A model generated the notes under the pieces. It did no database searches, had not been told where the DNA came from, and saw only the letters and a list, made by a program, of their open reading frames with translations. A stretch of 56,346 nt of DNA from Sulfuritalea sp. GTDB lineage: Bacteria > Pseudomonadota > Gammaproteobacteria > Burkholderiales > Rhodocyclaceae. This document shows, piece after piece, positions 1-56,017 of the stretch (position 1 is its first letter; each line of letters starts with the position of its first letter). The position numbers and the translations under genes were made by a program. The stretch lies in the NCBI GenBank assembly GCA_030696505.1, contig JAUYSD010000074.1, positions 1-56,346 on the forward strand, read 5' to 3'.

Positions 1-1295
1 CGACCGCGTCCGGCGATGCGCCGCTCGCCGAGCGCCTGCGGCCGGCCGCACTCGACGAGGTGATCGGTCAGCGGCAACTGCTCGGCGAGGGCAAGCCGCT
101 GCGGGCCGCGTTCGCGTCGGGCCGGCCGCATTCGATGATCCTCTGGGGCCCGCCGGGCACCGGCAAGACCACACTGGCGCGCCTGATGGCGCACGCCTTC
201 GATGCCCAGTTCATCGCGATCTCGGCGGTGCTCGGCGGCGTGAAGGACATCCGCGAGGCGATGCAGCAGGCCGAGCTCATGGCGCAGCAGGGCCGCCGCA
301 CCATCCTGTTCGTCGATGAAGTGCATCGCTTCAACAAGGCGCAGCAGGACGCCTTCCTGCCCTACGTCGAGCGCGGCACGGTGACCTTTATCGGCGCCAC
401 CACCGAGAACCCGTCCTTCGAGGTGAACTCCGCCTTGTTGTCGCGGGCCTCGGTGTATGTGCTGAAGAGCCTCGACGAAGCCGAACTGGGCGAACTGTTC
501 GATCGTGCGCGGACCCGGGCTCTCGATGAACTGGAATTCGAGCCGGACGCGCGCGACCGGCTGATCGGCTATGCCGACGGCGATGCGCGGCGTCTGCTCA
601 ACGTGCTGGAGCAGTTGCGTACGGCCGCCGCCACGGCCAAGCACCGTACCGTCAGCGCCAACTTTCTGGAACAGGCGCTGGCTGCCGACCTGCGGCGCTT
701 CGACAAGGGCGGCGACGCCTTCTACGACCAGATCTCGGCCCTGCACAAGTCGGTGCGCGGCTCCAATCCGGACGCTGCGCTGTACTGGTTGCTGCGCATG
801 CTCGACGGCGGCGCCGACCCGCTCTACATGGGGCGGCGCATCGTGCGCATGGCGATCGAGGACGTCGGCCTGGCCGATCCGCGCGCCTGGGAAATTGCGC
901 TCAACGCCTGCGCCACCTACGAGCGCCTGGGCAGTCCGGAAGGCGAGCTGGCGCTGGCCAATGCCGTGCTCTACATGGCCGTGGCGCCCAAGTCGAACGC
1001 GGCCTACGTCGCCTATAATGCCGCCCGCGCCTTCGTGGCCAAGGACAAGAGCCGCGGCGTGCCCGAGCACTTGCGCAATGCACCGACGAAACTGATGAAA
1101 GAGCTCGGCTACGGCGCCGAATACCGCTACGCCCATGATGAAGCTGAGGGCTATGCCGCCGGGGAAAGCTATCTGCCCGAAGGCATGCCTGCTGCGCAGT
1201 GGTATCAACCCGTGGCGCGCGGACTGGAACAGAAGATCGCCGAAAAACTTGCCCATCTGCGCGAACTCGACGCGCAGGCAAAAAAGAAACGATAA
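1..1295 (+). CDS. rarA: Replication-associated recombination protein A (AAA+ ATPase), 5' end before window
   Basis: Frame is open upstream of 60 (PLAERLRP motif); Walker A GPPGTGKT, DEVHRFNKAQQD, ISALHKSVRGS. Confidence 0.96.
   Translation, partial: TASGDAPLAERLRPAALDEVIGQRQLLGEGKPLRAAFASGRPHSMILWGPPGTGKTTLARLMAHAFDAQFIAISAVLGGVKDIREAMQQAELMAQQGRRTILFVDEVHRFNKAQQDAFLPYVERGTVTFIGATTENPSFEVNSALLSRASVYVLKSLDEAELGELFDRARTRALDELEFEPDARDRLIGYADGDARRLLNVLEQLRTAAATAKHRTVSANFLEQALAADLRRFDKGGDAFYDQISALHKSVRGSNPDAALYWLLRMLDGGADPLYMGRRIVRMAIEDVGLADPRAWEIALNACATYERLGSPEGELALANAVLYMAVAPKSNAAYVAYNAARAFVAKDKSRGVPEHLRNAPTKLMKELGYGAEYRYAHDEAEGYAAGESYLPEGMPAAQWYQPVARGLEQKIAEKLAHLRELDAQAKKKR
642..668 (+). repeat. 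Dispersed 24-bp motif copy 1 (in rarA)
   Basis: CACCGTACCGTCAGCGCCAACTTT; 2 mismatches to consensus. Confidence 0.75.
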
Positions 1296-1304
1296 GGATT
1301 CACC

Positions 1305-2585
1305 ATGCTGGATATTCAATTGTTGCGCAGCAATCTTCCCCTCGTTGCCGAGCGTCTGGCCCTGCGCGGCGTCACGCTCGACACCACGACTTTCGAGGCG
1401 CTTGAAGCCGAACGCAAGCGCCTGCAGGTGCACACCCAGGATTTGCAGGCCAAACGCAACACGCTGTCGAAACAGATCGGCATGCTGAAGGGCAAGGGCG
1501 AGGATGCGTCGGCCGTAATGGCGGAAGTCGCCGGGCTGGCCGATGCGCTGAAAGCCGGCGAGACGGCGCTGGCCGAACTGATGCCGCGCTTCGACACCTT
1601 CCTCGAACTGATACCCAACCTGCCGCACGAAAGCGTCCCGGTCGGCAAGGACGAAACCGGCAATGTCGAAATCCTGCGCTGGGGCACGCCGCGCGCCATC
1701 GCCGCGCCGCGCGACCACGTCGATCTCGGCACTGCGCTGGGCGGCCTGGATTTCGAGGCGGGAGTGAAGATTTCCGGCAGCCGCTTCACGGTCATGAAGG
1801 GGCCGATCGCCCGCCTGCATCGCGCGTTGGCGCAGTTCATGCTCGATCTGCATACCATTGACCACGGCTACACCGAGGTCTATACGCCGTATCTCGTTAA
1901 TCCCGAGAGCATGTTCGGCACCGGCCAGTTACCGAAGTTCGAGGAAGACCTGTTCATGGTGCCGCGCAGCGACGGCAGCAAGCTCTACCTGATTCCGACC
2001 GCCGAAGTGCCGGTGACCAACATGGTGCGCGGCGAGATCCTGGCCGGCGATGCGCTGCCGCTCAAGTTCGTCGCCCACACCCCCTGCTTCCGTTCGGAGG
2101 CCGGCAGCTACGGCAAGGACACGCGCGGCATGATCCGCCAGCACCAGTTCGACAAGGTGGAACTGGTGCAGATGGTGCGCCCCGATCAGTCGTGGGAGGC
2201 GCTCGAAGAACTCACCGGTCATGCCGAGGCGGTGTTGCAGAAGCTGGAACTGCCCTACCGCAAGGTGGCCTTGTGCACCGGCGACATGGGATTTTCGGCG
2301 GCGAAAACCTACGACCTCGAAGTCTGGCTGCCGGCGCAGAACACCTATCGCGAGATTTCCTCCTGCTCCAACTTCGAATCCTTCCAGGCACGGCGCATGC
2401 AGGCCCGCTTCAGGAACGACAAGAACAAGCCGGAGCTGCTGCACACGCTGAACGGCTCCGCCCTGGCGGTGGGCCGCACACTGGTTGCGGTGCTCGAAAA
2501 CTACCAGAACGCGGACGGCAGTGTCACGGTTCCCGCGGCGCTGCGGCCATGGATGGGCGGGACGGAGGCAATTCGCGCTGCCTGA
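1305..2585 (+). CDS. serS: Serine--tRNA ligase
   Basis: MLDI start, [36 protein letters not shown] motifs. Confidence 0.98.
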
Positions 2586-3936
2586 ACGCCGGCTGCGTCG
2601 AAAAAGGCGCGTCGTAGGCCGGTTCGAAGCGACGCAGGATGTCGTAGTAGCTGCGGATGTTCTCCACCATGATTACCGCTTCGCCGCCGCGCGCGGCGCC
2701 GCTCTTGAGCCGGGCATAGATTTCCGGCCGCGCCAGTTGCGGCAGAACCTGCTTCATTTCGTACCAGACGTCCGGGTCGCGCTTCATTTTCTTGGCGATG
2801 GCGCGCGCGCCGCGGAAGTGGCCCATGCCCAGGTTGTAGGCCGACAGGGCCAGCCACAGCCGATCCGGATGCTCGGCACTGGCCGGCACCTGTTCCACCA
2901 GTTGCGCCAGATAGCGCGCACCGGCGCGGATGCTTTCCGCGCCATCGAGGCGATTCCTGACGCGCAGCAAATCGGCCGTGTCCTCGGTCAGCATCATCAT
3001 GCCGCGCACGTTGGTGGGCGAGGTCGCCAGCGGATTCCAATGCGATTCCTGGTAGGCCAGGGCGGCCAGCAGGCGCCAGTCGATGCCGGAGAGTTCCTGT
3101 GCCGATTGAAAGTGGTGGCGCCAGTTCGGCAGCTTGGTTCGCATGTCGTCGAGGAAGCTTGCGATGCCCGCTGCATTGATGCGCTTGATGTGGCCGAAGT
3201 AGCGGTCATGAATGCGCGCCAGCGTACCGTCGGCGCGCGCTGCGGCGATGAAGGCGTCGGCCTTGGCGCGCAACTCGTCGGCGCCGTCCGCGCCAAAGGC
3301 CCAGCCGAACTCCAGCTTGCCCGGCAACTGCAGCAGGGGGTTCAGCTCCGGGTGGAAATTGACCCCCAAGTCGAGATTGATGTCGTGTACGGCGACCAAC
3401 GCTGCTTTGCGTTCCGCAACGCGCGCCAGCAGTTCCATTTCGTTGACGCCGGGGACTTCGACGACCAGCGGGCGCAATTTCTCGTCCAGTCCGCGCAGCG
3501 TGTCGGCCAGCGCCGAACCCGCCACCACTTCGATGGTTTGTCCGGCGAGATCGGACATTTTTTCGGGCCCGAGGACATCGGCGTAACCGACTATCCACTG
3601 GCTGACGCTGCGGATCGGGATCGAGTACTGCAAGGAACCGTTGCCCAGCGGCATCGATGCCGCCAGGTGGACCCGGCCGGCCAGGGCCAGATCGTTGAGT
3701 TCATAGGGATCGGCAGCCTTGATGAAATGCGCCTTGAGACCGATGCTCGCGGCAAAGGCGGTGACGAGGTCGTGTTCGAAGCCGCTCGCCACGGTGCCTT
3801 CGCGCTGCTGGAAAAAGGCCGGTATTTCCCGCACCGCAACCACCAGCCGGCCGTCTGCCACAGGCGGCTCGATGCGGCCGCAGGCGGTCGCAAAGGCCAG
3901 GGCAAGACAGCAGATCAGGCGAAGCGGCTTCGACAA
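2524..3936 (-). CDS. mltF: Membrane-bound lytic murein transglycosylase F
   Basis: Lipobox ATAC, SBP-like N-domain, SLT motifs YQESHW, GMMML, AYNLG, ARGGEAV. Confidence 0.9.
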
Positions 3937-55244: not shown

Positions 55245-55968
55245 CCCGAATCAGAACCACCTGCTGGCGGCGCTGCCGACGGCGGAATTCGAGCTGCTGG
55301 CGCCGCACCTGGAGCTGGTCGCATTGCCGCTGGGCGAGATGCTCTACGAGCCTGACCGGCAACTGCAGCATGCCTATTTCCCGACCACGGCGATCGTGTC
55401 CCTGTTGCATGTGATGGAGTCGGGCGCATCGGCCGAATCGGCCGGGGTGGGCAATGAAGGCGTGGTCGGCGTTTCGCTGTTCATGGGCGGCGAAACCACC
55501 ACCAGCTCTGCCGTGGTGCAGACCGCGGGATACGCCTATCGGCTCGACCGTCGCTGGCTGCTGCAGGAGTTCAATCGCTCCGGCCTGCTGCAGCGCCTGT
55601 TGCTGCGCTATACCCAGGCGCTGATGACGCAGATGTCGCAGACCGCGGCCTGCAACCGGCACCATTCGGTGGAGCAGCAACTGTGCCGCTGGCTGTTGTT
55701 GACCCAGGATCGCGTCGCCCAGCGCGAACTGGTGATCACCCAGGAATTGATCGCCGGCATGCTCGGCGTGCGCCGCGAAGGCGTCACCGAAGCCGCCGGA
55801 AACCTGCAGCGCGCCGGGTATATCAGTTACCGCCGCGGCCATATCGCCGTGCTCGATCGGGCCGGGCTGGAGACCCGCAGCTGCGAATGCTACGCCCTGG
55901 TCAGGAAGGAACTGGCTAGGCTGCTGTCCGATGTGCCGTATCGCCAGGAGGCCACGGCCGCCCGTTGA
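55228..55968 (+). CDS. Crp/Fnr family transcriptional regulator
   Basis: NHLLAALP, ACNRHHSVEQQLCRWLL, TQELIAGMLGVRREGVT, CECY. Confidence 0.94.
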   Translation: MPAAPSPNQNHLLAALPTAEFELLAPHLELVALPLGEMLYEPDRQLQHAYFPTTAIVSLLHVMESGASAESAGVGNEGVVGVSLFMGGETTTSSAVVQTAGYAYRLDRRWLLQEFNRSGLLQRLLLRYTQALMTQMSQTAACNRHHSVEQQLCRWLLLTQDRVAQRELVITQELIAGMLGVRREGVTEAAGNLQRAGYISYRRGHIAVLDRAGLETRSCECYALVRKELARLLSDVPYRQEATAAR

Positions 55969-55990
55969 TTGCGCGGCAGGGGCGCGTGGC

Positions 55991-56017
55991 GCAAGAGTTG
56001 GCGCTGGCGGTACGGCG
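55991..56017 (-). repeat. Dispersed 24-bp motif copy 11 (intergenic)
   Basis: CGCCGTACCGCCAGCGCCAACTCT; exact consensus. Confidence 0.9.

What the first reader, a model, noticed from the sequence alone, without database searches (positions are those of the whole stretch)
642..56017. Dispersed non-palindromic 24-bp motif, 11 copies on both strands: candidate DNA-uptake or chromosome-wide binding sequence
Seen: consensus CGCCGTNNCGCCAGCGCCAACTYT at 642, 4222, 5562, 7226, 11642, 27996, 28699 (+) and 21610, 25912, 45537, 55991 (-), with 0-3 mismatches over 22 defined positions and a fixed 2-bp spacer. Seven copies are in genes and four are intergenic, with unrelated flanks. Known: REPs are palindromic and intergenic; Chi and KOPS are 8-mers with replichore polarity; Neisseriaceae DUS and Pasteurellaceae USS occur on both strands and in permissive coding regions. 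Inference: this behaves like an uptake sequence or a nucleoid-organising protein site; I know of no such motif described for this lineage. About one copy per 5 kb would imply hundreds genome-wide.
Basis: partly seen in the sequence, partly recalled or inferred. Interest (0 to 1): 0.88.

Follow-up and report, generated by a model that had tools for sequence, protein, structure and literature searches.

The report
Genome-wide 24-base self-tag with dialects
Sulfuritalea and nine related genera of freshwater bacteria carry one 24-base DNA word hundreds of times throughout their genes and spacers, spelled differently in each lineage, and it likely works as a self-tag that favours gene exchange among kin, although what reads it is untested and most carriers appear to lack the usual DNA-uptake protein ComEA.

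Summary
Confirmed and genome-wide. The genome (genus Sulfuritalea by named look-alikes) holds 684 copies at up to 3 mismatches in 4.45 Mb, against 0 in the reversed control. They lie on both strands and in all six reading frames, never under 100 bp apart, without replichore polarity, and are rarer in foreign DNA. A shared skeleton is dense in 33 of 251 Rhodocyclaceae genomes (10 of 87 genera), with lineage dialects. Orthologous copies switch one letter in place (17 of 18, against 5 of 127 outside the motif), and new copies overwrite DNA without length change. It is therefore a selected or driven signal, not a transposon scar. It matches Neisseria DUS and Haemophilus USS in most genomic features. 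Against this: no pilin tracks it, no terminator pairs occur here, and ComEA was found in only 2 of 33 carriers against 89 of 218 others. At least four small hairpin elements sit at fixed points inside it. Best reading: an uptake-sequence-like self-tag with an unknown reader (0.5). No searched paper contains it. This scan noted the same word before, in Rugosibacter (e1-4246188).

The parts
642..665 (+). motif copy, 2 mismatches, in the mgsA/rarA AAA+ ATPase gene, sense strand
4222..4245 (+). motif copy, 1 mismatch, antisense in the radical SAM gene 4128-6380(-)
5562..5585 (+). motif copy, 2 mismatches, antisense in the same radical SAM gene
7226..7249 (+). motif copy, 1 mismatch, intergenic upstream of the HNH gene
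11642..11665 (+). motif copy, 3 mismatches, between flhC and rdgC
21613..21636 (-). motif copy, 1 mismatch, sense in the COX15/CtaA gene
25915..25938 (-). motif copy, 1 mismatch, antisense in the 688-aa gene with no Pfam hit (25102-27168)
27996..28019 (+). perfect motif copy near the start of the dioxygenase gene, sense strand
28699..28722 (+). motif copy, 1 mismatch, 40 bp after the dioxygenase stop codon
45540..45563 (-). perfect motif copy, intergenic by my gene calls or inside ORF 45041-45592 (no Pfam hit)
55994..56017 (-). perfect motif copy 26 bp after the Crp-family gene

Best explanation
The 24-26-base word sits about once per 6 kb on both strands of the chromosome and likely acts as an uptake-sequence-like self-tag, read by an unidentified factor that would favour entry or recombination of DNA pieces carrying it. 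Shown: chromosome-wide dispersal, lineage dialects, in-place switching of orthologous copies, colinear gains, mutual spacing in this genome, and scarcity in foreign and highly constrained DNA. It may be a replacement periplasmic ratchet or act at or after ComEC. The hairpin inserts are likely secondary parasites using an abundant safe site.
For: Abundance against controls. Information content is 35 bits against 13.6 needed to locate the sites. Placement: 430 of 684 in coding DNA (188 sense, 242 antisense, all six frames), 240 intergenic. No polarity in the complete genome G002: 37+/43- and 41+/34- on the two replichores (skew). Neighbour gaps under 1 kb: 39 observed, 91 expected, depleted for all orientations (under 500 bp: same strand 7 vs 32, convergent 5 vs 13.5, divergent 6 vs 13). 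Density per 100 kb is 6.8 in the least native genes, 17-18.5 in the lower-middle classes and 4.9 in the most codon-biased, and rises with window GC. Dialects occur in g24, g97, g49 and g68. Position 19 is G in G002 and A in G000 at 17 of 18 kept orthologous sites, while the fixed positions differ by 0-11%; outside the motif the same word shows A in 5 of 127. The switch changes amino acids, e.g. D to N. Flanks within 20 bp are about twice as divergent as background in the G226 and G002 comparisons, as reported for DUS (PMC2397512, passages). Colinear gain in G018: 2 mismatches against 8-11 in five other genomes, while G012 and G226 carry a copy on the other strand about 30 bp away. A short patch splits the genus against its tree. 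comEC was found in 84 of 84 genomes; dprA, recA and pilU are present in G000. Phages carry the motif at about a quarter to a third of host density (my sum: 92 copies in 33 records of 1.29 Mb, each record chosen for having one).
Against: ComEA was found in 2 of 33 dense genomes against 89 of 218 others (at most 21 candidates scored per genome; kin are not independent). An exhaustive search of G000 found none, and at the syntenic site used in four relatives the two flanking genes abut. ComEA/ComE loss severely or completely impairs transformation in Vibrio and Neisseria (PMC3879209, passages). PilE and FimU of carriers are fast-evolving and intermixed with those of non-carriers, and the other GspH hits are MSHA/T2SS pilins in both groups. 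comEC is universal, so it does not discriminate. G000 has no pairs under 100 bp apart, unlike DUS terminators. The even spacing was not reproduced in the 1.2-Mb sample of relatives, where same-strand pairs at 250-4000 bp were in excess (cause not checked). Highly divergent 60-bp windows between G000 and G018 are only slightly more common near sites. comM is interrupted in G000. A 35-bit site is long for a known uptake receptor. No uptake was measured.
Confidence: 0.5

Rival explanations
1. The sites bind a cytoplasmic chromosome protein (nucleoid organiser, segregation or repair loader), and each site is kept by ordinary selection.
For: Sites occur in both orientations, are evenly spaced and show dialect switching, all of which only need a protein reader. 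ComEA is mostly absent. The largest gap among 162 exact sites in G002 (208 kb, P=0.017) lies at the skew switch, as for ter-excluded SlmA/Noc sites (recalled).
Against: The one 20-kb stretch sampled in the gap is foreign DNA: L293 is 55% GC with no G000 homology, and G000's dif-like contig is 56% GC with no site. One further copy lies inside the gap. Known organiser sites (matS, SBS, NBS, parS) are palindromic and number in the tens (recalled). Multi-base colinear gains and non-synonymous re-spelling of hundreds of sites are hard to pay for by weak selection. RecC does not track the motif (4 of 28 carriers, 15 of 33 others), so a Chi-type reader is unlikely.
Confidence: 0.22
2. The word spreads selfishly by ectopic short-patch conversion: single-stranded copies anneal at look-alike sites and overwrite them (SPDIR-like or HUH-mediated), with no receptor.
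For: One gain shows about 9 changes in 24 bases against about 7% background divergence, with no indel. B and D inserts come with replaced neighbouring bases. The information content is in excess. SPDIR is described in Acinetobacter (bioRxiv 10.1101/2023.11.22.568220, abstract start only).
Against: Strong linkage is confined to the tail (positions 23-26). Only 6 of 102 intergenic and 5 of 102 coding pairs at least 8 bases apart had z>3, none joining the spacer to the tail, and paralogous flanks are barely more alike than control flanks. Mutual exclusion of neighbours and a genome-wide fixed dialect (70 of 70 G in G002) point to function per site.
Confidence: 0.13
3. The word is a start signal for DNA export rather than uptake (a pac-like site for a transducing phage or gene transfer agent, or a nick site for chromosome mobilisation), giving the same molecular drive.
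For: A long asymmetric site resembles pac or nic sites in kind (recalled). It needs no ComEA or pilin. Phage contigs carry it.
Against: In phages the copies are scattered (1-7 per record, both strands, variable positions) and sparser than in hosts. No candidate terminase or relaxase was sought across genomes. A short exclusion zone (under 1 kb) fits short transferred pieces better than capsid-sized ones.
Confidence: 0.1
4. The word is the scar or end of a MITE/REP element, or a regulator box.
For: REP-like hairpins sit inside some copies. Copies are enriched in intergenic DNA.
Against: None of the orthologous losses listed was a clean 24-26-bp indel, and many had zero length change. The motif is non-palindromic and barely folds. 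63% of copies are in coding DNA, and intergenic ones crowd after stop codons in both orientations. No IS110 transposase was found, and the only Y1 transposase gene is frameshifted. In-place dialect switching cannot come from transposition.
Confidence: 0.05

Closest known systems
USS of Pasteurellaceae (9-bp core in an extended motif with AT tracts; Hin and Apl dialects; ComN/PpdA predicted as receptor, PMC12616744)
   Same: Long non-palindromic motif, hundreds of copies, both strands, preferred reading frames, dialects, not an inserted element, scarce in new and constrained genes (PMC7811141 and PMC2817400, passages).
   Different: Unrelated GC-rich sequence with about 22 constrained positions; about 1 per 6 kb rather than about 1 per kb; no PpdA-like pilin tracks it; ComEA mostly not found; uptake untested.
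DUS of Neisseriaceae (10-12 bp, receptor ComP)
   Same: Betaproteobacterial; dialects follow lineages; conserved motif in more divergent flanks; new copies differ too much for single point mutations (PMC2397512 and PMC3630211, passages). The left end shares five letters with the DUS start.
   Different: The functionally key DUS core (CTG) falls on this motif's variable spacer, so they are not the same determinant. No close inverted terminator pairs in G000 and no ComP-like receptor.
REP/CGTC repeats and RPE-type in-frame inserts (PMC3733652, passages)
   Same: The 18-120-bp hairpin inserts resemble REP/RPE elements, nest in one another and mostly keep the reading frame.
   Different: The motif itself is non-palindromic and is the target rather than the element; several insert families use distinct fixed positions in it.
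Chi, KOPS, matS/SBS/NBS/parS (recalled)
   Same: Chromosome-wide short signals read by proteins.
   Different: No replichore polarity, far higher information content, not palindromic, and present with or without RecC.

Membership tests
DNA uptake sequences (DUS/USS) | strong genome-wide over-representation of a non-palindromic motif | tested here: met
DNA uptake sequences (DUS/USS) | both strands, all reading frames, permissive sites | tested here: met
   (local amino-acid identity 35% vs 68% whole-gene in motif-negative orthologs, n=17)
DNA uptake sequences (DUS/USS) | under-represented in recently acquired and strongly constrained DNA | tested here: met
   (GC and codon score as proxies; no core-genome set built)
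DNA uptake sequences (DUS/USS) | not an inserted element; lineage dialects | tested here: met
DNA uptake sequences (DUS/USS) | close inverted pairs acting as terminators (DUS) | tested here: not met
   0 of 390 neighbour gaps under 100 bp in G000; rare close pairs exist in relatives
DNA uptake sequences (DUS/USS) | complete canonical uptake machinery | tested here: inconclusive
   comEC, dprA, pilU present; comEA not found; comM interrupted; pilT probably beyond a contig end; comF not found by signature
DNA uptake sequences (DUS/USS) | cognate minor-pilin receptor (ComP or PpdA type) co-distributed with the motif | tested here: not met
   only the best 30 loci per search were read
DNA uptake sequences (DUS/USS) | motif-dependent DNA uptake or transformation | not testable with these tools
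   needs culture experiments
Chi/KOPS | replichore polarity | tested here: not met
   only a weak bias in G000 contigs (142 vs 107, p=0.03)
Ter-excluded nucleoid sites (SBS/NBS type) | palindromic site absent from the terminus region | tested here: inconclusive
   non-palindromic; the terminus gap in G002 is confounded with foreign DNA; G223 test underpowered with 31 sites
REP/MITE | palindrome, insertional origin, cognate transposase | tested here: not met

The most novel reading that the evidence does not exclude
A third, independently evolved self-DNA recognition system exists in free-living freshwater Betaproteobacteria. It uses a 24-26-bp tag with at least five dialects, read by a new kind of sequence-specific DNA receptor that has replaced ComEA, and its sites have become a shared landing pad for several families of miniature hairpin elements.
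Probability: 0.3. Interest if true: 0.9.

Novelty: new variant of a known kind. Interest (0 to 1): 0.74.

Why it matters
In the papers read here, self-specific uptake tags are described for two host-associated families, Neisseriaceae and Pasteurellaceae. A longer, independent tag in environmental bacteria would let one test whether molecular drive is general. Practically, the word and its dialect mark host lineage on phage and metagenome contigs, and adding it might make these groundwater sulfur- and nitrate-cycling bacteria transformable.

Tried and rejected
Rfam scan of the window gave only a tRNA. The first de novo repeat finder was too noisy. The Markov version recovered the motif in 2 of 2 control samples and nothing like it in 40-60-kb samples of 7 motif-poor genomes or 2 more. 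The idea that 4-5-kb viral hits were microviruses was rejected: they are 7-11% complete fragments. The plasmid search gave only matches at E about 1. A methylation or mutation-bias cause for the G/A switch was rejected. Strand-specific spacing, suggested by e1-8417623, was not seen. Genes beside comEC, and PilE, FimU, MshC and RecC, do not track the motif. The ComP_DUS Pfam hits in G000 are ordinary pilE operons. PF12836 mostly returned proteins of about 800 aa, which I take to be Tex. Sequencing runs were contigs only and uninformative. The terminus test in G223 was underpowered. Signature searches for pilT and comF were inconclusive. Literature: 0 papers with 'DNA uptake sequence' plus 'Rhodocyclaceae' and 0 with any of four 14-letter pieces of the motif. 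Searches listed nothing on this lineage. Subscription papers and supplements were not seen, and supplementary repeat tables (e.g. of PMC3733652) could bear on the inserts. No whole-genome gene-content profile could be run.
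Full report
Observation. The 11 copies are real and absent from 100 shuffles. The window is contig C148 of a 4.45-Mb, 398-contig, 90%-complete genome, G000. G000 has 684 sites at up to 3 mismatches and 725 at PWM score 18 or more, against 0 in the reversed genome. Coding DNA has 454, against 19-28 after synonymous shuffling. 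Scores pile up at the consensus. The motif carries about 35 bits where 13.6 would locate the sites, with weak extra preferences at positions 0 and 25-26.

Anatomy in the genome. Using my own self-trained gene caller, 430 of 684 sites are in genes (188 sense, 242 antisense, all six frames, three of them preferred), 240 are intergenic and 14 overlap gene ends. Intergenic copies crowd within 40 bp after stop codons in both orientations. No two copies lie under 100 bp apart in G000, and gaps under 1 kb number 39 against 91 expected. The deficit holds for same-strand and opposite-strand pairs. It did not reproduce in 1.2 Mb from three relatives, where same-strand pairs were in excess; I did not check the cause. 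Density is low in low-GC windows, in atypical genes and in the most codon-biased genes. In the complete genome G002, 162 exact sites show no strand switch between replichores. Their largest gap (208 kb, P=0.017) spans the skew switch, but the one 20-kb sample taken there is foreign low-GC DNA, as is G000's dif-like contig.

Distribution and dialects. All 18 other genomes of the genus that were drawn carry it, and 0 of 12 from other families of the order do. With the G000-type pattern, 23 of 251 family genomes have 268 or more copies. With a degenerate skeleton, 33 of 251 in 10 of 87 genera have 190 or more, four have 28-106 and the rest 17 or fewer (my counts from the table). Dialects differ at position 19 (A in G000 and G018, G in most), in the middle (g24, g97), at positions 17-18 (g68) and in the tail (g49). 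On a ComEC tree of 61 genomes (quick method, SH-aLRT only), carriers fall in one part of the family but are interleaved with non-carriers, which implies repeated loss or gain. Records named Sulfurisoma, Rugosibacter and Methyloversatilis are dense; those named Thiobacillus and Azonexus hold only a few copies. Phage contigs carry it: 129 loci before the cap, and 92 copies in 33 selected records of 1.29 Mb (my sum).

How sites evolve. Of 69 sites in 400 kb of G002, 32 had alignable flanks in G000. Of these, 18 were kept, and 17 of the 18 read G in G002 and A in G000. For G226, 10 of 18 alignable sites were kept and 8 switched. For G018, 38 of 48 were kept and none switched. Outside the motif the same seven-letter word shows A in 5 of 127 aligned places, so the switch is motif-specific, and it can change amino acids. 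None of the listed losses was a clean motif-sized indel. Many are colinear with dense substitutions, and several are interrupted by inserts. I polarised three sites with outgroups. One is a gain in G018 alone, beside which G012 and G226 have a copy on the opposite strand. One is a loss in G000 within a divergent patch of about 200 bp. One is a patch shared by G000, G008 and G002 against G018, G001, G226 and G012, contrary to overall relatedness. This indicates short-patch exchange between species (inference). Flanks within 20 bp are about twice as divergent as background in the G226 and G002 comparisons, and on the left side only in G018. Genome-wide enrichment of divergent windows near sites was slight.

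Inserts. At least four families of hairpin-rich inserts of 18-120 bp sit at fixed points in the motif. A lies after position 19 (6 of 26 copies rebuild a site), B after position 6 (9 of 12), and C after position 12 (7 of 24 loose regex hits). D lies in the middle on the other strand, with all 19 copies between motif arms by inspection. Orthologous sites are often empty in relatives. Net lengths are mostly multiples of three, and the inserts nest. B and D resemble each other in opposite orientation. No IS110 was found, and the one Y1 transposase is frameshifted. They resemble REP/RPE elements (PMC3733652, passages). None lies in the window.

comEC was found in 84 of 84 genomes and is intact in G000. 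dprA, recA and pilU are present; pilT probably lies beyond a contig end; comM is split by low-GC DNA. PilE and FimU of carriers are diverse and intermixed with those of non-carriers, and the weaker GspH hits are MSHA/T2SS pilins. RecC is in 4 of 28 carriers and 15 of 33 others. ComEA was found in 2 of 33 dense genomes against 89 of 218 others (Fisher p=3e-5, overstated by kinship and limited by a 21-candidate first look). An exhaustive search of G000 found none, and the flanking genes of the syntenic site abut. ComEA/ComE is needed for efficient transformation in Vibrio and Neisseria (PMC3879209, passages). This is the main evidence against a textbook uptake sequence, and also the best lead to a new receptor.

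Mechanism. Shown: a dispersed, high-information, orientation-free signal that is gained, kept and re-spelled site by site. Inferred: sequence-biased gene exchange drives it, as proposed for USS and DUS (PMC7811141, PMC2397512 and PMC2817400, passages), 0.5. Rivals: a cytoplasmic chromosome protein, 0.22; selfish patch conversion, 0.13 (weakened by the lack of spacer-tail linkage and of shared flanks); an export or packaging signal, 0.10; an element scar or regulator box, 0.05.

Comparison and novelty. It works like USS and DUS in five genomic features. It is not filed as a member, because the receptor and terminator-pair features were not met and uptake is untested. Searches found no paper on it; subscription papers and supplements were not seen. 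I read passages only of PMC2397512, PMC3630211, PMC7811141, PMC2817400, PMC12616744, PMC3733652 and PMC3879209, and the abstract start of the SPDIR preprint. Statements on Chi, KOPS, matS, SBS, NBS, parS, pac and nic sites are recalled. New here are the dialect map, the in-place switch with its control, the polarised gains, the insert families and the ComEA deficit.

Noticed in passing
G000 genome, e.g. C175, C189, C184, C57, C88: At least four families of 18-120-bp hairpin inserts sit at fixed positions inside the motif, nest in one another and are polymorphic between species; their transposase is unknown.
   Followed up: partly
G000 C320:3249-4151(-) and C343 start: comM is split, with low-GC DNA after the N-terminal half and the C-terminal half on another contig: likely a mobile island inserted in comM, a recalled hotspot for elements that block transformation.
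   Followed up: partly
G000 C249:2540-2722(+) and the next ORF from about 2736: A very short (60-aa) type IV pilin followed by a 121-aa secreted protein, resembling the split PilA-N/PilA-C arrangement of Geobacter (resemblance recalled), in a region of atypical codon use.
   Followed up: no
L275-L277 (G181, genus g19): A different, palindromic 22-bp repeat (core CACGGTCGACCGTG) is over-represented in this motif-negative genome.
   Followed up: no
G000, about 40 copies: A separate REP-like family beginning GGGCCGCCCCAAG, apparently at gene ends and independent of the motif.
   Followed up: no
L166 (viral contig), L040, L041: Tandem arrays of motif-bearing units: five copies at 316-385-bp spacing in a provirus, and triplets in a Sulfuritalea genome.
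   Followed up: no
L502-L507, L509, L512 (mshC genes): The MSHA pilin gene mshC carries a motif-like site at one conserved peptide in several genera, including motif-poor G065, possibly a relic or a transferred allele.
   Followed up: no
window 3998-4087(+), 6391-6966(-), 10637-11554(+), 11752-12651(+): tRNA-Ser(CGA), a small HNH endonuclease gene, flhDC and rdgC; G018 has about 5.4 kb extra DNA at window position 6353-6395.
   Followed up: no
G000 C238: A dif-like site lies on a 22-kb, 56%-GC contig with no motif copy.
   Followed up: partly
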